Below are positions 13,388-35,306 of a stretch of 64,000 bases of DNA, piece by piece. Under the pieces are notes generated by a model. That model had not been told where the DNA came from, did not search any database, and saw only the letters and a program-made list of their open reading frames with translations. The position numbers were made by a program, and so were the translations under genes. Within the stretch, counting starts at the first letter, position 1; every line of letters begins with the position of its first letter. Source of the stretch: a virus. The stretch lies in the IMG/VR virus record IMGVR_UViG_3300023109_000007, positions 64,001-128,000 of that record; one strand, 5' to 3'.

Positions 13388-14370
13388 TAGATAAATCCTT
13401 CTGTGCCACTGGCCGCATAATCGCCGTTCGCAAACTTCTGTAGATTAAATGTAGATTGTGTTGTTCTACTGTACTGTGGTAATAGTGTTACTGTAATTGT
13501 AGATTGTACAGGAACATAGTTATCTTGGTTTTCTAAATTAACTTTTATATAATCTACTTCTGCAGGTAAATCGGTTGTAAAGTTACTTACAACTACAGGT
13601 ATGTTATTAAGAACATGTCTGCCATATCCGTTTAGTCTAGCAACCAAAGGTGGATTACCACTGTATGCTCCGTCGCCATAGAACATTTTAGTCATTGTTC
13701 TAAGATAATGTAACACAGCAATCCAGTATACGGCATCAGCTGACGATTCGCTATAAAATTCACCTGTAATTGTTATTGCATCTACTTGACTGTTTTCATA
13801 TGCATTATAAGGATAGTTTACATGAGTTGGATGTATTTGACTATAACTTGCTGTATTACCAAATAATATTGTAGGTGTAAACGGAAAAACTAGTTTGCCG
13901 CCACTGTTTTTAAATGGGTTAAATAAAGCACTGTCAGTAATAGCTTGAGGTATAGATAAACTAACTCTCCAATCATTTGATTCAGGATCAATTCCGCCAG
14001 CTGACACACTTTGACTTATTAGTTGAGCCTGTGCCGAATTAGCAGAAATTGGGTTAGCGCCAGGTGGAGGACCGCCTGCTGCTCCCATTCTGCTTCTAGT
14101 TCCAAAACCCCGTGTAAAGGTACCTTTGAGAGCGTTAAAGTCAGCTGTTGCACCTTTGGCAAGATTAAGTAAATCTGATCCTTGAGATACTAAGCCTTTT
14201 AAGCCACCAATTGACGGTTTACTAGCAAAGTTTCCGATAGCACCTTGTAAGCCACTAACTCCGCCAAAAGCTGCGGTAGCATTTGATTTTAGATTATTAA
14301 ATGTACTCTGAGCGTTCTTTACAGAGCTTGCCATTGATGATAATTGATTAAATCCGCTAAAAAGTCCCAT
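13387..14370 (-). CDS. Baseplate/tail-tube initiator (gp48/gp54-like)
   Basis: LVFPFTPTI...ITITGEF...GNPPLVARLNGYG...IPVVVSNFT motif; first gene of the baseplate operon. Confidence 0.55.
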   Translation of the reverse strand: MGLFSGFNQLSSMASSVKNAQSTFNNLKSNATAAFGGVSGLQGAIGNFASKPSIGGLKGLVSQGSDLLNLAKGATADFNALKGTFTRGFGTRSRMGAAGGPPPGANPISANSAQAQLISQSVSAGGIDPESNDWRVSLSIPQAITDSALFNPFKNSGGKLVFPFTPTILFGNTASYSQIHPTHVNYPYNAYENSQVDAITITGEFYSESSADAVYWIAVLHYLRTMTKMFYGDGAYSGNPPLVARLNGYGRHVLNNIPVVVSNFTTDLPAEVDYIKVNLENQDNYVPVQSTITVTLLPQYSRTTQSTFNLQKFANGDYAASGTEGFI

Positions 14371-14390
14371 ATTTCTTTATCTCCTACATA

Positions 14391-14398
14391 GTATTTAG
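14391..14398 (-). promoter_or_regulatory. Late promoter (CTAAATAC) for the baseplate operon
   Basis: TAAATA core 20 nt upstream of ATG 14370, followed by an AGGAG SD. Confidence 0.65.
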
Positions 14399-14427
14399 TT
14401 GACAAATTTAACTACGTATATTATAAT
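14399..14427 (+). promoter_or_regulatory. Consensus sigma70 promoter for gp55
   Basis: TTGACA (14399-14404), 17-nt spacer, TATAAT (14422-14427). Confidence 0.85.
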
Positions 14428-14456
14428 AGTATATATACTATAAGCCTGGAGCAAAA

Positions 14457-15284
14457 ATGAGAAAAAAGAACTACCTTAATAATAAGGACATTTTAAAAGA
14501 AATACACAAATCTAAGAATACATATAACAGTTACGTAGAAGAAGATTACGGACAGTTTGATATTATTTTATTAGATGTTGACAAAGTTAATATTAGAACT
14601 ATTGCAGAAGCAAAACGCAACAAAGCAAAACGTCTAAGCACAGCTGACTACGAAGCACGTAAGATGGCCGGACAAAAAGTTAAACAAGCAGAGTGCGAAG
14701 TTGATTATAGAAAAATTACAAAAGAAGAACTAATTTTTCGTGTCATGACATTTGATCATATTCCAGAAGAACCCGGAAGAAAAAAGAATCCGAAGACTAT
14801 AGCAGACACAAAAACTAAATTAAACTTTCCTCCATTTAAACATTATAAGTTTACAGATGACGGCGAATTAGTATGTGTAGGAAAAAGTCATTGGGAAGGT
14901 GGAATGGAAAACGGTTGCTTTAGTAAATCACATGGTAAGGCAACAAACAATCTAGCTATGATGTGGATGAAACTTTGTGATAGATACGCAACAAGAGGCA
15001 ATGTACGTGGTTACACTTACAATGACGAAATGCGTGGTCAAGCAATCTTGCAGTTAGCACAGATTGGCTTACAGTTTGACGAGTCAAAATCACAAAATCC
15101 GTTTGCTTACTATACTGCGGCTGTAACTAATAGTTTTGTACGTGTTATTAATATTGAAAAACGCAATCAAAATATTAGAGACGATATTCTTGAAATGAAT
15201 GACTTGAATCCAAGTTATACAAGACAACATGCAGGCGAATGGGAAGCTTCCCTAAAAAGACAAAAAGAACTTTCAAAAAAGTAG
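14457..15284 (+). CDS. gp55: Late-transcription sigma factor (gp55-like)
   Basis: YLNNKDIL, NVRGYTYNDEMRGQAILQL and FDESKSQNPFAYYT motifs; located before gp47/gp46 as in T4-like phages. Confidence 0.88.
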   Translation: MRKKNYLNNKDILKEIHKSKNTYNSYVEEDYGQFDIILLDVDKVNIRTIAEAKRNKAKRLSTADYEARKMAGQKVKQAECEVDYRKITKEELIFRVMTFDHIPEEPGRKKNPKTIADTKTKLNFPPFKHYKFTDDGELVCVGKSHWEGGMENGCFSKSHGKATNNLAMMWMKLCDRYATRGNVRGYTYNDEMRGQAILQLAQIGLQFDESKSQNPFAYYTAAVTNSFVRVINIEKRNQNIRDDILEMNDLNPSYTRQHAGEWEASLKRQKELSKK

Positions 15285-15313
15285 TTGACAAGTGTACATT
15301 TTTGTTATATAAT
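15285..15313 (+). promoter_or_regulatory. Consensus sigma70 promoter for gp47/gp46
   Basis: TTGACA (15285-15290), 17-nt spacer, TATAAT (15308-15313). Confidence 0.85.
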
Positions 15314-15343
15314 ATAACAAGTAGATAACCCGGAGACTATATT

Positions 15344-16351
15344 TTGTTTAAGAAAGCAGCAGTTTTTACTGACATACACTTTGGCCTTAAAAGTAATAGC
15401 CGAACGCATAACTCAGACTGTGAAGAATTCATTGATTGGTTTATTGTTAATGCAAAAGAAAAAGGTTGCGAAACCTGCATTTTTTGCGGCGATTGGCATC
15501 ACAACAGAAATTCACTTAATCTTACTACTATGGATGCAACAATTCGTAGTATGGAAAAGTTAGGCAAAGCATTTGATAAAGTTTTGATGTTTGTAGGAAA
15601 TCATGATTTATATTACAAAGACAAACGTGATGTAAGTTCTACTGAGTTTGCTAGGCATATACCTGGTATTACAGTAGTTGACAAGATACTAGTCGAAGAT
15701 GACGTTGCTCTTGTTCCATGGTTAGTTGGTGATGAATGGAAAAAAGTAGGAAAAATTAAAGCCAAGTATTTGTTTGGTCATTTTGAACTACCTAGCTTCT
15801 ATATGAATGCCATGGTGCAGATGCCTGATCACGGAGACTTAAAGGCTGAACATTTTGTTAATCAAGAATATGTGTTTTCAGGACACTTTCACAAACGTCA
15901 AAAGCAGGGTAAAGTACATTACTTAGGTAATGCATTTCCGCACAACTATGCAGATGCATGGGACGATGATCGCGGAATGATGGTACTAGAACACGGGGGC
16001 GAACCCGAGTACATTAACTGGGAAGCCTGTCCAAAATACAGAACAATAAAACTTTCTAAACTAATTGATGACACTGACAAACTTATTAAAGATAAGATGT
16101 ATTTGCGTGTTACACTAGACTTACCAATTAGTTATGAAGAAGCTAACTTTATTAAAGAAACTTATATTAGCAATTACGGTGTTCGTGAACTAACACTTAT
16201 ACCGCAAAAGCAGATGGAAGAAATTAGTACAGATTTAGATATTGCACAATTTGAAAGTGTTGATCAAATTGTAGCAAGTGAAATAGCAGAACTAGATACT
16301 GCCAACTACAATAAGAACACTCTCTTACAAATATATAATGGTTTAGAATGA
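15344..16351 (+). CDS. gp47: Recombination nuclease, Mre11/SbcD-like
   Basis: Metallophosphoesterase motifs DIHFG, GDWHH, GNHD, GHFE and SGHFH; TTG start with GGAG SD. Confidence 0.92.
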   Translation: MFKKAAVFTDIHFGLKSNSRTHNSDCEEFIDWFIVNAKEKGCETCIFCGDWHHNRNSLNLTTMDATIRSMEKLGKAFDKVLMFVGNHDLYYKDKRDVSSTEFARHIPGITVVDKILVEDDVALVPWLVGDEWKKVGKIKAKYLFGHFELPSFYMNAMVQMPDHGDLKAEHFVNQEYVFSGHFHKRQKQGKVHYLGNAFPHNYADAWDDDRGMMVLEHGGEPEYINWEACPKYRTIKLSKLIDDTDKLIKDKMYLRVTLDLPISYEEANFIKETYISNYGVRELTLIPQKQMEEISTDLDIAQFESVDQIVASEIAELDTANYNKNTLLQIYNGLE

Positions 16352-18120: not shown

Positions 18121-18311
18121 TGGATGATACACAAGATAAATTAGCTCAAGCATATTTAGAATACTTTCGAGCAAACGAGCTGTTTGAAACACGGAATAGT
18201 GTACGTACACACAGGTATGTAAGAAAATGTTTAAGAGATATTAGATCACTTGCAAAAGACAGAATGGAAGAAATACACGTAAAGTATTTGGATAAGAAAA
18301 ATAATGTTTAA
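18120..18311 (+). CDS. Small hypothetical protein
   Basis: 63-aa ORF coupled to gp46 by TAATG. Confidence 0.6.
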   Translation: MDDTQDKLAQAYLEYFRANELFETRNSVRTHRYVRKCLRDIRSLAKDRMEEIHVKYLDKKNNV

Positions 18312-19023
18312 TATTTGGAAAAAGAAAGAAAAATTACACATAGATTGCTTTACTAATTTTGGTGGTATTACTAAACTTTTTCCAATAGAATCTAGTTCTG
18401 CTTTCATGCCTGAATGGTTTAAAAAGTTGCCTACAACAGCACAAACTGATACTGGCGGTAATGTAGGAACTGTAAAATTATGTCCTGGAATAACTGATAC
18501 ATTAAAGGCCGGTATTGTTATTCCTGTTTGGTGTGATATGTTTGTAGATCATGCAAACGGAGTTGTTAAAACTGAGCCAGAAGAAATGGCAGACGGACAT
18601 CCAAGTTGGCAATGGGGGAATCATTCATTGTTTAAAGGTTATCATCATTTAAAGATTTCATCACCTTGGCGATTTAGAGAAAAAACAGGTGCAAAATTTA
18701 TGATGACTAATTCTTTTTGGAATGATCCTCAAACTAATTATTTTGTTCCAAATGGTATTTTAGATTTCAAATATCAAACTACAACTAATATTAATATTTG
18801 GATACCGAAAAATAAATTTGGAGGTAGCGGAAAATTTTTACTCGAAGCAGGAAATCCGCTAGTACAAATAATTCCATTAGAGGATAAAGAAATTGTAATT
18901 CATATGCAAGAAGTTGGTGATGATGTATTTTACGGAGACGAATTAGATTATATCTTTACACAAAAAGGCATGTATTATAAGAGAAAAAACATTTTGTCCA
19001 AACGAGAAGGCAAAAAGACTTAG
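18304..19023 (+). CDS. Hypothetical protein
   Basis: 239-aa ORF with TVKLCPGITD...GIVIPVWCD and KISSPWRF; function not assignable. Confidence 0.65.
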   Translation: MFNIWKKKEKLHIDCFTNFGGITKLFPIESSSAFMPEWFKKLPTTAQTDTGGNVGTVKLCPGITDTLKAGIVIPVWCDMFVDHANGVVKTEPEEMADGHPSWQWGNHSLFKGYHHLKISSPWRFREKTGAKFMMTNSFWNDPQTNYFVPNGILDFKYQTTTNINIWIPKNKFGGSGKFLLEAGNPLVQIIPLEDKEIVIHMQEVGDDVFYGDELDYIFTQKGMYYKRKNILSKREGKKT

Positions 19024-19040
19024 GCACACATATATACTGG

Positions 19041-19490
19041 ATGCAGTGGACATTTGAAGGTAAAATAATAGACGAAATACCAGAAGAGTACGAAGGCTTT
19101 GTTTATCTTATTACAAATATCACTACAGGACAAAAATACATAGGCAAGAAACTAGCAAAATTTAAAACTACTAAGCCACCGCTTAAAGGCAGAAAAAATA
19201 AACGACGAGGCTATAAAGAAAGCGACTGGAGAACATACTACGGTAGTTCAGACAGACTAAACGCAGACGTAGCATCAATAGGCTCAGATAAGTTTACAAG
19301 AGAAATATTATACCTATGTAAAGGTAGGGGCGAAATGTCCTACATAGAGGCAAGAGAACAGTTTGATAGGCGAGTACTTGAAACTGATGATTACTATAAC
19401 GGTATCATCAATGTTAGAGTAGGCGGTTCAGACAAACTCAAACAGGCATTGCTAGAACAAAACATCAAGGCAAAACAATCTAACACATAA
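19041..19490 (+). CDS. Stand-alone GIY-YIG endonuclease (Seg-like catalytic domain only)
   Basis: GFVYLITN...KYIGKK, YYGSS, conserved Glu helix (SYIEAREQF) and YYN. At 149 aa it has no evident appended DNA-binding domain. Confidence 0.85.
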   Translation: MQWTFEGKIIDEIPEEYEGFVYLITNITTGQKYIGKKLAKFKTTKPPLKGRKNKRRGYKESDWRTYYGSSDRLNADVASIGSDKFTREILYLCKGRGEMSYIEAREQFDRRVLETDDYYNGIINVRVGGSDKLKQALLEQNIKAKQSNT

Positions 19491-19865
19491 GGTTGGCGGG
19501 CCAGATTAATTTACCGCTGTGGAAAAAGCTCTCGTATAGAAGCACACGTAACACGTTGAGTCGCGTCTGGTAATAAGGCGTTGGATTGACGTAGATTGAA
19601 TGTTAGCAATTGAAAAACACAACACAGTACATAAAAACCCTTTAGCACTAGGAACGAAGCGAGGGAATAGTGTTACATATAATGTACATTGTATATTATA
19701 AGCAACATAATGTCGACGTAGGTTGGGAAAGGTCAGAGCCCATTGTACTTTGTGTATAAACAATTACCTACTTCCAATGTCTTGGCTGGTGCAGACTCAC
19801 ATGAAGCGCATTTTGAGATTAGATGGGACCGTAACAGGTTCCGTCTGACTGAAACAATCTACATG
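19491..19865 (+). ncRNA. Candidate large structured ncRNA directly downstream of the GIY-YIG gene
   Basis: No credible ORF. Many helices, including long-range GTAGATTG(19591-98)/CAATCTAC(19855-62), GTAGGT(19718-23)/ACCTAC(19766-71), and 10-bp stems at 19678-19700 and 19821-19846. Confidence 0.6.
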
Positions 19866-19874
19866 AAACTTAAA

Positions 19875-19984
19875 CATTATTACATTCGTAATAATGCATT
19901 TGTATCATATTCATTACTTCTATCAACAAACGAAGTATGTAGTTTGAGCGTTAAGCGAAAACAAATATCTACGAAGTAGATATT
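19875..19984. repeat. Cluster of short inverted repeats
   Basis: CATTATTAC-ATTC-GTAATAATG (19875-96), TACTTC...GAAGTA (19915-37), AATATCTAC-GAA-GTAGATATT (19964-84). Confidence 0.7.
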
Positions 19985-19996
19985 GAAACTATATAA

Positions 19997-20004
19997 TATA
20001 AATA
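19997..20004 (+). promoter_or_regulatory. T4 late promoter TATAAATA
   Basis: Exact T4 late consensus upstream of ORF 20030, with an AAGGA SD. Confidence 0.8.
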
Positions 20005-20029
20005 CATTAACTATTAAGGATTCTTCTAG

Positions 20030-20572
20030 ATGAAAATTGATGAAATTGAAAAACTTGATGAAGTGCCTGCAGGTATGCTAGGACAAGCTGGTAAAAAGCT
20101 TGGAGCAAAAGTATTAAACAAAATACCAGGTGGTGCTGCTAAATCAAAAGCTGCTAATATGGCTGCACAAGCTGACTTGGGAGATACTGCAAATAATTTA
20201 CATAAAGAATTTAATGCTCACCTTGGGTCTAAACAACTAACAATGGCACAAGCAACTGGAGAAGAATTAGTTGCTTTTCTAAAAACAAAGAATCACAAGA
20301 CTGCTGCTAGAATACCTTCTGGTGTATTACAAAAACAGCAACTTGATGCAGTACTAATGGCAGTTGCAAAAGAAGCAACGGCAGCACAAGCTGCTGCTCC
20401 GGCTGCAAATGCACCAGTAGATGCTAACAAAGATGGTATAGATGACAATACAGGAAAGCCAATCAAAGCTGCTCCTGCGGCTGGTGCAAAACCTAAAATA
20501 CCAGCAGACATTATGGCACAACTACAAAAACTTAGTCTTGAGCAAAAACAACAGTTGGCAGAGCTACTATGA
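20030..20572 (+). CDS. Putative internal head protein
   Basis: Ala/Lys-rich, late promoter, N-terminal MKIDE...KLDE resembling gp21 cleavage sites (I/L-x-E). Confidence 0.5.
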   Translation: MKIDEIEKLDEVPAGMLGQAGKKLGAKVLNKIPGGAAKSKAANMAAQADLGDTANNLHKEFNAHLGSKQLTMAQATGEELVAFLKTKNHKTAARIPSGVLQKQQLDAVLMAVAKEATAAQAAAPAANAPVDANKDGIDDNTGKPIKAAPAAGAKPKIPADIMAQLQKLSLEQKQQLAELL

Positions 20573-34489: not shown

Positions 34490-34498
34490 AAAAAAAGG

Positions 34499-34526
34499 TT
34501 GACATCTTATATATAGATGCTATTAT
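34499..34526 (+). promoter_or_regulatory. sigma70-type promoter
   Basis: TTGACA (34499-504), 16-nt spacer ending in TGc, TATTAT (34521-26). Confidence 0.7.
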
Positions 34527-34534
34527 GTATATAT

Positions 34535-34740
34535 AAGCTAAACGACGGTTTAGATTAGATAGTGCAAGGAACGGTGTTGCGTAGTGACACAACTTGGCTA
34601 GTAGCTGTAGTGGCAACATATGAGTGTAGAGATACAAAGATATGTTTTTGGAAGTAACTATCCGATGCTAGGCTCCTCCGAACATGGCGAGAGCTACTAG
34701 GAGGTTGTTGGTATTCTCAGAGTCCAACCTATCACTTTAT
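34535..34740 (+). ncRNA. Candidate stand-alone structured ncRNA
   Basis: ORF-less and bracketed by a promoter and terminator. Helices include CTAGTAGCT/AGCTACTAG, AACATAT/ATATGTT with a GAGA tetraloop, GTGTTGC/GTGACAC and AGGTTG/CAACCT. Confidence 0.65.
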
Positions 34741-34744
34741 TATT

Positions 34745-34779
34745 AAAAGGTCTACCCACTAATGCGGTAGGCCTTTTTT
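34745..34779 (+). terminator. Rho-independent terminator
   Basis: AAAAGGTCTACC...GGTAGGCCTTTT followed by a T-rich tail. Confidence 0.8.
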
Positions 34780-34797
34780 CTTTTCTCTTAGACCTTT

Positions 34798-34901
34798 GAT
34801 AAATACTATTGTCAAATAGTGTGCCGCAAGGCGGACTTATGCTGTACCCACAGCGTAGCTCATAGAACGGGCATAGGACTACTTTTTATAGGAGAAAAAA
34901 A
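34798..34901 (+). promoter_or_regulatory. Late promoter (GATAAATA) plus structured 5' leader
   Basis: GCC-GCAA-GGC, TATGCTGT-ACCC-ACAGCGTA and GCTC...GGGC hairpins before the AGGAG SD. Confidence 0.55.
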
Positions 34902-35306
34902 ATGGGAAGACCAATTAATAAAAGATTTTTCGGAGAGCCAACAGCAGCTGGTTCTGAAATCAAAGTACGTTTTCGTGCTACAGGACAAGCAGAAGCAAAC
35001 GGCTGGATTGTAAAGCAATTAGGATCTAAGAAGTTCCGTTGCTACGATGGTACTAACACAATGGATTGTACAATCGTTGACAAATCACAAGGTACGTTAG
35101 CAGTAGGCGAAATGACGATTACAGTTAAAGACGATGGCGGCACAGCACGTCAAGTAACTAAAATTGCAGGACGCAAAGTAACACTTGACTCAGGCGCAAG
35201 TATTGCTTGGAACTTCAGTAATGCTACAGATGATGCAGCAGTTGAAATGGAAGAAGCTGGTACAGCTGATGACTTCACTGGCGCAGACGATTTCGAAGCT
35301 GACTAA
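34902..35306 (+). CDS. Putative virion structural protein
   Basis: 134 aa, strong SD, late promoter; MGRPINKRFFG...WIVKQLGSKKF. Confidence 0.65.
   Translation: MGRPINKRFFGEPTAAGSEIKVRFRATGQAEANGWIVKQLGSKKFRCYDGTNTMDCTIVDKSQGTLAVGEMTITVKDDGGTARQVTKIAGRKVTLDSGASIAWNFSNATDDAAVEMEEAGTADDFTGADDFEAD

What the first reader, a model, noticed from the sequence alone, without database searches (positions are those of the whole stretch)
19029..19865. Minimal GIY-YIG nuclease followed immediately by a ~375-nt multi-domain structured RNA: candidate nuclease-ncRNA system
Seen: the 149-aa GIY-YIG ORF is essentially a bare catalytic domain. Its stop codon (19490) is followed with no spacer by an ORF-less region, in an otherwise tightly packed genome. 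That region folds by eye into nested helices: TGGCGG/CCGCTG (19494-519); ACGTTGA/TTGACGT enclosing GCGTCT/AGGCGT; a perfect long-range helix GTAGATTG(19591-98)/CAATCTAC(19855-62) closing a ~255-nt domain; CCCTT/GAGGG; TATAATGTAC/GTATATTATA; GTAGGT/ACCTAC enclosing TGGG/CCCA; and AGATGGGACC-GTAACA-GGTTCCGTCT. Two possible pseudoknots: loop GGTCAG(19731-36) with CTGACT(19845-50), and 5' loop GCCAG with TTGGC/CTGGT near 19782-90. Frequent G-U pairs favour RNA on the + strand. Known: phage GIY-YIG homing endonucleases such as I-TevI usually carry separate DNA-binding domains, while IscB/TnpB nucleases get specificity from an adjacent structured RNA. Inference: this may be a co-transcribed nuclease-RNA ribonucleoprotein (possibly RNA-guided) or a new large phage ncRNA class. 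I do not recognise it as a group I/II intron, RNase P, tmRNA or tRNA.
Basis: partly seen in the sequence, partly recalled or inferred. Interest (0 to 1): 0.85.

Follow-up and report, generated by a model that had tools for sequence, protein, structure and literature searches.

The report
Twin-box structured RNA beside phage nuclease
The gene-free stretch behind a small DNA-cutting enzyme gene of this uncultured marine phage encodes a real, knotted RNA of roughly 400-500 bases that no catalogue holds. It carries one 7-letter word twice, and the two copies always mutate together. Its job is unproven and nothing shows that it guides the enzyme.

Summary
The ORF-less stretch after the 149-aa GIY-YIG gene (19041-19490) is a genuine structured RNA on the + strand. 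On 30 diverse relatives, a 12-helix model with one pseudoknot has 33 of 61 pairs with compensatory changes, against 18.6 in shuffles (0/500). Rfam 15 has no match. The oddest feature is a 7-nt word present twice (19799-19805 and 19861-19867). The copies change in parallel: 156 of 161 loci are identical, with about 17 independent co-changes on a tree and no complementary partner in cis.

The RNA-guided-nuclease reading is not supported. The RNA, with twin boxes, also occurs without the nuclease in podovirus-like contigs. The nuclease family (phrog_447) occurs in 807 cultured-phage records, none with this RNA. Within this phage clade the pair is fixed: 62 of 62 evaluable gp46-selected loci carry the nuclease and none is vacant.

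Best reading: an autonomous new RNA class next to a resident Seg-type homing-endonuclease gene. The boxes most simply read one complementary strand, perhaps the RNA's own template DNA. This scan had already found the same family in at least seven other genomes.

The parts
19041..19490 (+). 149-aa stand-alone GIY-YIG nuclease gene (SegE type; phrog_447)
   Evidence: Pfam PF19835, E 1e-35, residues 3-123. phrog_447, E 3.6e-39. Intact in 152 of 164 related loci; the other 12 are cut by the end of the DNA held.
19479..19493 (+). Conserved single-stranded 5' leader of the RNA (CAACACATAAGGTT type). It overlaps the last codons and the stop of the nuclease gene.
   Evidence: Nearly invariant in A1. 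Also present in L123 and L132, which have no nuclease gene.
19495..19518 (+). P1 hairpin GGCGG/CCGCT with a 14-nt loop holding GCCAG
   Evidence: 97.8% paired; 3 of 5 pairs with double changes.
19519..19547 (+). P2 (GTG/CAC) enclosing the small hairpin P2a
   Evidence: P2 is 96.7% paired, with UA<->AU exchange. The outer P2a pairs show 11 and 14 double changes. The inner P2a pairs are poorly aligned, 53% paired.
19553..19592 (+). P3 (ACGTTGA/TTGACGT) closing a variable domain that exists in at least three alternative forms
   Evidence: 96.1% paired; CG<->UA 14:14 and AU<->GC 16:10. The alternative inserts are seen.
19594..19611 (+). P4 local hairpin GATTG/CAATT.
   Evidence: 96.7% paired; 4 of 5 pairs with double changes.
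19627..19631 (+). 5' strand of pseudoknot PK1 (GTACA)
   Evidence: Pairs with 19744-19748. 97.2% paired; 5 of 5 pairs with double changes.
19638..19665 (+). P5 hairpin (CCCT/AGGG) with the invariant loop word AGGAACGA (19650-19657)
   Evidence: 95.7% paired; 4 of 4 pairs with double changes. Loop invariance.
19669..19708 (+). P6 variable hairpin, shortened in many relatives to GAAA- or GTAA-capped stems
   Evidence: 19671/19707 is the top covarying pair (CG 51, TA 49, AT 13). Length variants.
19715..19774 (+). P7 (GA.GTAGGT/ACCTAC.TC) enclosing P8 (TGGG/CCCA, loop AAAGGTCAGAG) and the 3' strand of PK1 (TGTAC, 19744-19748). This is the most conserved core.
   Evidence: 100% and 97.5% paired. 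Mean identity to the window is 0.85 over 117 relatives, partly inflated by the 17-nt search motif.
19780..19818 (+). Probable hairpin Hx (TCTTGG/TTGAGA) that carries box 1 in its apical part
   Evidence: 69.8% paired in a poorly aligned stretch; 3 of 6 pairs with double changes. Only moderately supported.
19799..19805 (+). Box 1 (ACATGAA), preceded by the invariant ACTC
   Evidence: Parallel covariation with box 2.
19822..19845 (+). Hairpin Hy (GATGGGACC/GGTTCCGTC)
   Evidence: 97.4% paired; 3 of 9 pairs with double changes.
19861..19867 (+). Box 2 (ACATGAA), preceded by the invariant ATCT, in an unpaired stretch
   Evidence: Identical to box 1 in 156 of 161 loci. 17 independent co-changes, 0 opposite, 1 unchanged.
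19876..19895 (+). Hairpin T1 after box 2, often capped by a UUCG-type loop and followed by a weakly U-rich run
   Evidence: Covarying pairs 19877/19894, 19881/19890 and 19882/19889. That it acts as a terminator is inference only; the terminator scan did not call it.
19942..19983 (+). Conserved block GTTTGAGCG..GCGAAAAC with a 2-bp mini-hairpin, then hairpin T3 (19965-71/19977-83). Part of the same unit.
   Evidence: 19949/19955 CG 102, TA 17. Six covarying pairs in T3. A related GAGCG block follows the RNA in L123 and L132 despite a different gene context.
19997..20004 (+). TATAAATA, then AAGGA and the ATG at 20030: the next gene's own late-type promoter and ribosome-binding site. This marks the 3' limit of the RNA unit.
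   Evidence: Read. The consensus of the T4 late promoter is recalled, not tested.

Best explanation
The stretch 19479-19985 is an autonomous, strongly selected, pseudoknotted non-coding RNA gene of an uncatalogued family ('twin-box RNA'). The family is carried by a large clade of uncultured marine T4-like phages and by some podovirus-like phages.

The GIY-YIG gene in front of it is a stand-alone Seg-type homing-endonuclease gene. It became resident next to this very conserved RNA gene and is read on the same transcript. It is not the RNA's obligate protein partner.

The conserved core (PK1, P5-P8) is a scaffold. The working parts are two identical 7-8-nt boxes behind the fixed words ACUC and AUCU. 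One probably sits at the top of a hairpin; the other is in an unpaired stretch about 60 nt downstream. Their sequence is free to vary but must stay identical, so they act by base pairing, not as a protein-binding site.

No third covarying site exists in cis. The most economical partner of box 1 is therefore the complement of box 2, that is, the template DNA strand of the RNA's own gene. The folded RNA would re-anneal to its own locus as a short R-loop anchor, in the way proposed for ColE1 RNA II. This could serve priming, local control of transcription, or strain-specific self-recognition.

Shown: the RNA structure, the box coupling, the independence from the nuclease, and presence in RNA libraries. 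Inferred: co-transcription, the partner of the boxes, and any downstream effect.
For: Real RNA.
- The 12-helix model is 92.9% paired against 83.9% in shuffles. 33 of 61 pairs have double changes against 18.6+-1.9 (0/500), and slid controls give 10-15.
- G-U pairs and GNRA/UUCG loops fit the + strand only.
- Mean identity to the window is 0.85-0.87 for the core, 0.75 for the nuclease gene and 0.29 for the next gene.
- There is no conserved ORF.

New family.
- No Rfam 15 match.
- No blastn match in 50,697 phage records.

Twin boxes.
- 156 of 161 loci have identical boxes.
- At least 12 different words occur.
- The best mutual-information partner of every variable box-1 column is the same column of box 2, with 98-99% identical letters.
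- On a tree built without the box columns, box 1 changes 18 times and box 2 changes 17 times. In 17 independent pairs box 2 goes the same way, in 0 the other way, and in 1 it is unchanged.

No cis partner.
- No consistent reverse complement within +-3-4 kb.
- No Watson-Crick-covarying column.
- No 6-nt pairable window common to more than 43 of 118 sequences.

Independence from the nuclease.
- L123 and L132 have the RNA and twin boxes but no GIY-YIG gene within the ~700 nt searched upstream of the RNA's expected start (>=934 nt upstream of the motif was held).
- L132 has a perfect TTGACA-17-TATAAT about 140 nt upstream of the RNA.
- The nuclease family is in 807 phage records without the RNA.

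Expression.
- Contigs of RNA libraries from 4 studies cover the nuclease gene and the RNA and bridge their junction.
Against: - Nothing was measured for an RNA-DNA contact. Seven or eight A/U-rich pairs are weak without help.
- The cumulative GC-skew minimum of the window lies at about 14 kb, where gene direction flips, not at the RNA. There is therefore no support for an origin there.
- Hx, which should display box 1, is only 69.8% paired in my alignment.
- In this clade the RNA is never seen without the nuclease. 62 of 62 evaluable gp46-selected loci have the nuclease, 50 of the 50 that reach far enough have the RNA, and none is vacant. The nuclease is intact in 152 of 152 complete copies, and its stop codon lies in the RNA leader. 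A functional tie in this clade therefore remains possible.
- A trans target elsewhere in these large, incompletely assembled genomes could not be searched. CheckV estimates 36% completeness for this contig.
- RNA-library contigs can come from contaminating DNA, and they show no RNA ends.
Confidence: 0.45

Rival explanations
1. Nuclease-RNA particle. The RNA supplies the DNA-recognition module that the bare GIY-YIG domain lacks. Box 1 is a 7-8-nt guide, and box 2 is the matching DNA site at the edge of the cassette.
For: The pair is strictly linked in this clade: 105 of 108 motif-selected loci with enough upstream DNA and 62 of 62 gp46-selected loci. The nuclease is intact in 152 of 152 complete copies, down to 56% identity. 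The stop codon lies inside the RNA leader. RNA-library contigs bridge the junction. Box 1 equals a DNA word 60 nt downstream, which is what a guide-target pair would look like.
Against: The RNA with twin boxes exists without the nuclease. The nuclease family exists in 807 phage records without the RNA. The nearest cultured relatives have unrelated downstream DNA. The 148-aa size is normal for phrog_447. The matching site lies in the phage's own genome, so a guide would aim at self. No vacant allele was found that homing could invade (0 of 62).
Confidence: 0.12
2. Trans-acting riboregulator or sponge. The two boxes are duplicate seeds that pair with one outside RNA, a phage or host transcript containing the complementary word.
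For: One box is probably in a loop and the other is in an unpaired stretch, like the seeds of multi-seed small RNAs (recalled: RNAIII, RsaE). No cis partner exists. RNA libraries hold the RNA.
Against: The word changed about 17-18 times within one clade, between phages whose nucleases are about 89% identical. A host target would not move that fast. A phage target needs three sites to change together, and no such site lies within +-3-4 kb. In the 137.7-kb contig, 9 complementary 7-mers occur besides the boxes' own complements. The most striking is a 12-nt copy of the box-2 word and its flank on the minus strand, at contig position about 131,582; it lies inside a coding frame and looks like chance.
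Confidence: 0.18
3. Processing or splicing signals. The RNA is cut (by itself or by an RNase) after ACUC and after AUCU. This would release or remove the ~60-nt inter-box piece. The identical boxes would keep both junctions the same, like the overlap regions of recombination sites.
For: Fixed 4-nt words precede both boxes, and the word after them is free but matched. Spacing is narrow: 40-68 nt, mostly 56-62. The core is ornate and has GNRA loops, like ribozymes.
Against: No contig in 4 RNA libraries joins box 1 to box 2. The joints seen are strain variants of P3 and P6. No known self-cleaving or intron model matches, even at E<=10. None of 127 distinct DNA sequences lacks the inter-box piece. 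Recognition without any complementary guide would not explain why the two boxes must be identical.
Confidence: 0.1
4. Decayed group I intron or homing cassette. The RNA is the remnant of a self-splicing intron that once carried the GIY-YIG gene.
For: GIY-YIG genes are typical passengers of phage group I introns (recalled). The RNA has a pseudoknot that joins an upstream strand to the inside of a conserved helix after an A-rich joiner, plus GNRA-capped peripheral stems.
Against: The Rfam group I model does not match, even at E<=10. There is no interrupted gene, and the flanks do not form one reading frame. The order of the hairpin and the pseudoknot strand inside P7 differs from P7-P3'-P8 (my reading against the recalled group I scheme). 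The RNA is under stronger constraint than its neighbours and occurs without any nuclease gene.
Confidence: 0.03

Closest known systems
Free-standing Seg-type GIY-YIG homing endonuclease genes of T4-like phages (for example SegB inside the T4 tRNA gene cluster; recalled)
   Same: A small stand-alone GIY-YIG gene (Pfam SegE_GIY-YIG) sits between genes of a T4-like phage, directly beside a conserved structured-RNA gene.
   Different: Here the gene is fixed and intact in every evaluable member of the clade, not sporadic. No vacant allele was found. Homing or cleavage was not tested.
GOLLD and ROOL RNAs (Rfam RF01998, RF03087; accessions as given in the earlier scan notes)
   Same: Large, ornate, pseudoknotted non-coding RNAs, often phage-borne, known first from metagenomes, and of unknown function.
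   Different: No Rfam family matches the region at the gathering score or at E<=10 or four divergent members at E<=1. This RNA is smaller (about 400-500 nt), is not near tRNA genes, and has the twin boxes, which those RNAs are not known to have.
ColE1 primer RNA II (recalled: Masukata and Tomizawa 1990; not read here)
   Same: A folded RNA of several hundred nucleotides in which an upstream RNA segment is proposed to pair with the template DNA strand further downstream. The RNA therefore carries the same word twice.
   Different: This is an analogy only. There is no sequence or structure likeness, no origin evidence here (GC-skew minimum elsewhere), the words are 7-8 nt of mixed sequence, not G runs, and no RNase H site is known.
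Phage P4 immunity RNA system (seqA and seqC flanking CI RNA with seqB; recalled)
   Same: Two copies of one short word in a structured phage transcript, acting by base pairing and defining specificity.
   Different: In P4 both copies pair with a complementary seqB in the same region. Here no complementary word exists in cis.
IscB/TnpB omega-RNAs (HEARO and IS605-orfB RNAs)
   Same: A nuclease gene lies next to a large structured RNA.
   Different: The nuclease fold is different. There is no Rfam match. The RNA is found without the nuclease and the nuclease without the RNA. There is no terminal guide taken from flanking DNA.

Membership tests
Any Rfam 15 family (group I/II introns, RNase P, tmRNA, GOLLD, ROOL, HEARO, self-cleaving ribozymes) | Score at or above the family's gathering threshold | tested here: not met
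   The whole window at gathering thresholds gives only freshwater-2 at 34820-34904. The region 18900-20200 at E<=10 gives three matches of 14-17 bits against cut-offs of 45-100. Four divergent members at E<=1 give 0 matches. ARAGORN finds 0 tRNA or tmRNA genes.
Group I intron | Interrupts a gene whose exons join into one frame or one RNA | tested here: not met
   The upstream gene ends with its own stop. The downstream gene has its own TATAAATA, ribosome-binding site and ATG. Indels in the 3' tail are not multiples of three.
Group I intron | P3-P8 pseudoknot with a P7 guanosine pocket in the order P7-P3'-P8-P7' | tested here: inconclusive
   A pseudoknot into the P7-like helix exists, but the hairpin comes before the pseudoknot strand. 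The group I scheme is recalled. Catalysis is not testable here.
SegE-type GIY-YIG nuclease (Pfam PF19835; phrog_447) | Profile match over the whole catalytic domain | tested here: met
   PF19835: E 1e-35, profile positions 1-123 of 123. phrog_447: E 3.6e-39, profile positions 9-143 of 148.
SegE-type GIY-YIG nuclease | Conserved GIY, YIG, Arg, Glu and Asn motifs kept under selection | tested here: met
   The consensus of 152 intact copies keeps EGFVYLITN, KYxGKK, KRRGxKESDW, EAREQF and YYNGIINVRVGG at >=95% or >=70%. Which residues are catalytic is recalled, not tested.
Mobile homing-endonuclease cassette | Sporadic distribution, with vacant alleles among close relatives | tested here: not met
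   0 vacant among 62 evaluable gp46-selected loci; 18 of the 80 were too short. The same protein family sits in other contexts in Melnitz and cyanophages.
RNA-guided nuclease system (omega-RNA type) | Obligate co-occurrence of nuclease and RNA across lineages | tested here: not met
   The RNA occurs without the nuclease in L123 and L132. The nuclease occurs without the RNA in 807 phage records.
RNA-guided nuclease system (omega-RNA type) | RNA-dependent binding and cleavage | not testable with these tools
   This needs biochemistry. The complex predictor takes no RNA.
Twin-box RNA (the family defined here and in earlier notes of this scan) | Core P5-P8 with PK1, then ACUC+word ... AUCU+the same word | tested here: met
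   The window has PK1, P5-P8, box 1 at 19799-19805 and box 2 at 19861-19867. 156 of 161 relatives have matched boxes.

The most novel reading that the evidence does not exclude
The twin-box RNA is a programmable self-recognition device. Box 1, held out by a conserved RNA scaffold, pairs with the template DNA strand at box 2 of the same locus and tethers the RNA to its own genome. Because the word can drift as long as both copies match, each phage strain has a private 'address'. In mixed infections, the event it triggers would then fire only on self. Candidate events are priming of DNA synthesis, a programmed nick by the neighbouring GIY-YIG nuclease that feeds the adjacent SbcCD-like (gp46/47) recombination machinery, or local transcription control. 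That would be an RNA-addressed cis-acting DNA element of a kind not described in phages.
Probability: 0.2. Interest if true: 0.9.

Novelty: categorically new. Interest (0 to 1): 0.68.

Why it matters
Large structured RNAs with strong conservation usually mean unusual biochemistry, and few classes remain unexplained. This one is abundant: the protein-guided scan alone found at least 595 related viral contigs. It is more conserved than the proteins around it and is shared by two kinds of marine phage.

It also carries a signature I could not find described anywhere: two identical short words that co-mutate in parallel with no complementary partner nearby. Solving it would reveal either a new way for an RNA to address DNA or RNA, or a new processing reaction.

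It also corrects a tempting misreading. A minimal nuclease beside a big RNA need not be an RNA-guided nuclease.

No cultured phage carries the RNA, so for now it is a target for in vitro work.

Tried and rejected
- Known RNA family: rejected.
- Hidden protein gene: rejected. In 85 loci no ORF of 60 aa or more recurs at one place or frame in the first ~420 nt. The next long + strand ORF starts 369-627 nt downstream. The two ORFs that my greedy ORF map kept inside the region are not conserved.
- A cis anti-box: not found by exact reverse complement, by mutual information over -760..+420, or by 6-nt pairable windows.
- Extra copies of the box near the nuclease start or elsewhere within +-4 kb: none that covaries.
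- Own contig: besides the boxes' own complements, 9 complementary 7-mers occur. The most striking, at contig position about 131,582, is a 12-nt copy of the box-2 word and its flank on the minus strand; it lies in a coding frame, so I treat it as chance.
- Splicing between the boxes: no such joint in the RNA-library contigs. The joints seen are strain variants. Contigs cannot show RNA ends or rare forms.
- Replication origin: the GC-skew minimum is at about 14 kb, not at the RNA. This is a weak test in a phage whose skew follows gene direction.
- Cultured carrier: none by blastn.
- Bacterial carrier: the 3 hits in genome contigs are the same phage module inside contigs binned with a Crocinitomicaceae MAG and a Neomarinimicrobiota MAG. 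These are probably binning artefacts and at most a faint host hint.
- Relatives of the podovirus-like context: a protein-guided scan gave the query's own contig and 4 others (one is L132's own contig), several ending near the RNA. I did not analyse them further.
- Very close pairs differing only in the boxes: none. The nearest neighbours with different boxes differ at 16 or more of about 270 other positions.
- PDB by sequence: no match for the nuclease.
- I built no covariance model and ran no protein fold; neither would have changed the verdict.
- Literature: two full-text searches and 11 passages of PMC10690425 mention no such RNA. For the IStron/TnpB preprint I saw only the search listing and the start of its abstract.
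Full report
**What is there.** The window is part of a 137,746-base IMG/VR virus contig that CheckV rates 36% complete. Upstream of the finding lie SbcD-like and SbcC-like nuclease genes, the T4 gp47/gp46 pair (phrog_100 E 1.6e-69; phrog_77 E 2.6e-100). Next come a 63-aa ORF and a 239-aa ORF (phrog_7084). The 149-aa ORF follows at 19041-19490. It is a SegE-type GIY-YIG domain (Pfam PF19835, E 1e-35, residues 3-123) and belongs to phrog_447, whose profile is 148 residues long. After its stop codon come 539 nt without a conserved ORF. The next gene starts at 20030 behind TATAAATA and AAGGA. A baseplate-hub gene lies further on, on the other strand.

**Is the RNA real?** The + strand folds at -136.9 kcal/mol, z -3.75 (0 of 100 shuffles as good). 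The - strand gives z -1.84.
- A protein-guided scan with the nuclease found at least 595 related viral contigs. In the 80 kept (86-94% identity), the DNA after the stop aligns to the window at about 80% as far as 19960-20040.
- In 85 loci no ORF recurs in the first ~420 nt.
- Conservation is blocky. Near-invariant cores such as 19711-19750 alternate with replaceable hairpins at 19551-19590 and 19671-19710. Many relatives shorten these hairpins to GAAA- or GTAA-capped stems.
- On 30 diverse sequences (A1) a 12-helix model is 92.9% paired against 83.9% in shuffles. It has 33 of 61 pairs with changes on both sides against 18.6+-1.9 (0/500); slid controls give 10-15.
- Frequent G-U pairs, for example 25 and 27 of 30 in P3, fit only the + strand.
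- Over 117 relatives, mean identity to the window is 0.85 (19709-19775) and 0.87 (19822-19868). It is 0.75 for the nuclease gene and 0.29 for the next gene. The first figure is inflated by the 17-nt motif used to collect part of the set.

Every string is where it was said to be.
- Supported helices: GGCGG/CCGCT, ACGTTGA/TTGACGT, CCCT/AGGG, GTAGGT/ACCTAC with TGGG/CCCA, the variable hairpin, and GATGGGACC/GGTTCCGTC.
- Not supported: the long-range helix 19591-98/19855-62. Where its 5' strand varies, the partner that compensates is 19607-11, a local hairpin.
- The proposed GCCAG/TTGGC pseudoknot is unpaired at its A-U position in 16 of 27 sequences with letters there (3 rows are gapped).
- GGTCAG/CTGACT is pairable but invariant, and one side was fixed by my search motif.
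- A different pseudoknot, 19627-31 with 19744-48, has changes on both sides at all five pairs.
- The unit is longer than stated. A conserved leader (CAACACATAAGGTT type) begins by 19479, inside the end of the nuclease ORF. Three or four further hairpins and a conserved GTTTGAGCG..GCGAAAAC block run to about 19985.

**The twin boxes.** ACATGAA occurs at 19799-19805 after ACTC, and again at 19861-19867 after ATCT.
- Across relatives the word varies. Forms seen are ACATGAA, ACATAAT, ACATGAT, ACGTGAA, ACATGAG, ACAGAAA, ACAGGAA, GCATAAA, GCATGAA, GTATGAA and ACATAAA. L123 has ATCATCAAGT and L283 has GAATAAT.
- The two copies match in 156 of 161 loci.
- Among 127 distinct sequences, 125 hold an exact repeat of 7-11 nt, mostly 56-62 nt apart. 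The two exceptions differ at the seventh letter. In 5 of the 125 the longest repeat my script picked was another AT-rich word, so the box count rests.
- The best mutual-information partner of each variable box-1 column is the same column of box 2, with 98-99% identical letters.
- On a tree of 127 rows built without the box columns, box 1 changes 18 times and box 2 changes 17 times. Over the six variable positions, the phylogenetically independent pairs show box 2 going the same way 17 times, the other way 0 times, and unchanged once. Each position alone is too small for significance; the pooling is my own arithmetic.
- No complementary partner exists in cis. No further covarying copy lies within +-4 kb.

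**Relation to the nuclease.** Of the 117 loci collected by the RNA motif alone (L089-L205), 105 have the GIY-YIG gene directly upstream and 9 lack enough upstream DNA. One (L162) is a chance hit in GC-rich DNA. Two (L123, L132) are true RNAs without the nuclease.
- In L123 and L132 the RNA lies between a tail-fibre-like gene and the terminase genes. This points to a podovirus-like genome, though that label is my inference.
- L132 has a perfect TTGACA-17-TATAAT about 140 nt upstream of the RNA.
- Conversely, tblastn finds the nuclease family in 807 cultured-phage records. blastn finds the RNA in none. In Melnitz (69% identity) and Synechococcus phage B23, the DNA after the gene is unrelated.
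- Inside this clade the pair is fixed. Of 80 loci chosen by gp46 alone, 18 are too short. All other 62 have the nuclease, and 49 also show the RNA by blastn. Twelve end before the RNA would begin. One (L283) carries a divergent version that still has ACTC+GAATAAT ... ATCT+GAATAAT.
- The nuclease ORF is intact in all 152 complete copies, down to 56% identity.

I therefore read it as a resident Seg-type gene beside a very conserved RNA gene, not as the RNA's obligate partner. A clade-specific collaboration cannot be excluded.

**Expression.** Logan contigs from RNA libraries of four studies cover the nuclease gene and the RNA and bridge their junction. No contig joins box 1 to box 2; the joints seen are strain variants of P3 and P6. 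Contigs cannot show ends, strand or rare forms, and DNA carry-over is possible.

**How it probably works.** The fixed flanks with a free but matched word argue for recognition by base pairing. The word changed about 17-18 times within one clade. A conserved host target is therefore unlikely, and a phage target would need three sites to change together. The most economical partner of box 1 is the complement of box 2, that is, the template strand of the RNA's own gene. ColE1 RNA II (recalled) offers a precedent for an upstream RNA segment re-pairing with template DNA. I hold this at about one in four to one in five.

The GC-skew minimum is elsewhere and nothing was measured. The rivals are duplicate seeds for an unseen trans RNA, processing sites, a clade-specific nuclease guide, and a decayed intron. 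They are ranked in their own section.

**Novelty.** No Rfam family matches. No cultured phage carries it. No paper found in two full-text searches describes it. The IMG/VR catalogue of 10,006 unnamed candidates (PMC10690425; passages read) may contain it in supplements I could not open. This scan had already noted and followed up the same family in at least seven other genomes under the name twin-box RNA. I reached the parallel covariation before reading those notes, and my counts agree with them.

Noticed in passing
window 18304-19023: The 239-aa ORF (phrog_7084, unknown function) between the 63-aa ORF and the nuclease gene is an insertion. Only L084-L088 have it; all the other related loci lack it. 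A paralogue with the same N-terminal pattern lies on the minus strand of the same contig at about 131,790-132,495, outside the window.
   Followed up: partly
window 34820-34904: The only Rfam match in the window at gathering score is freshwater-2 RNA (RF02980, 68.4 bits, E 2.5e-08). It sits in a 412-nt ORF-free gap (34490-34901) that another first-reader note calls a separate ncRNA candidate.
   Followed up: no
loci L007, L010, L011, L017, L029, L036, L038, L052, L062, L067, L075, L088 (about window 19626-19637): Twelve of the 85 loci examined (nuclease- or 239-aa-ORF-selected) end 136-147 nt after the nuclease stop, just before the invariant RNA core (L079 ends at 128 nt). Many gp46-selected contigs also end inside the nuclease-RNA module. 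Probably assemblers break where an ultra-conserved core is shared by strains with different P3 and P6 inserts.
   Followed up: partly
L283:5120-5600: A divergent 'type 2' RNA follows the same nuclease gene. It has a different core and a GCAA-capped hairpin in place of Hy, yet keeps ACTC+GAATAAT ... ATCT+GAATAAT and the GAGCG block. The family is therefore wider than my 17-nt motif can find.
   Followed up: partly
L206, L207, L208 (genome contigs): The same nuclease-RNA module lies on contigs of 72.8, 335 and 153 kb binned into a Crocinitomicaceae MAG and a Candidatus Neomarinimicrobiota MAG. This looks like phage DNA in bacterial bins, and at best a faint host hint.
   Followed up: partly
window 19024-19040 and homologous places in relatives: The nuclease ATG is preceded at 5-8 nt by a conserved GGTAAGTA / ATATATA / ATAAGTA word and no clear Shine-Dalgarno sequence. 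This may be a late-type promoter with a near-leaderless start, or an unusual ribosome-binding site.
   Followed up: no
L123:5023-5424: In the podovirus-like contig that has the RNA but no GIY-YIG gene, an ORF about 1.9 kb upstream ends with an HNH-like CDNRxCxNPxHL motif. I recognised the motif from memory and did not test it.
   Followed up: no
window 14000-15400: The cumulative GC skew of the window turns at about 14 kb, where gene direction flips just before the SbcD-like gene.
   Followed up: no
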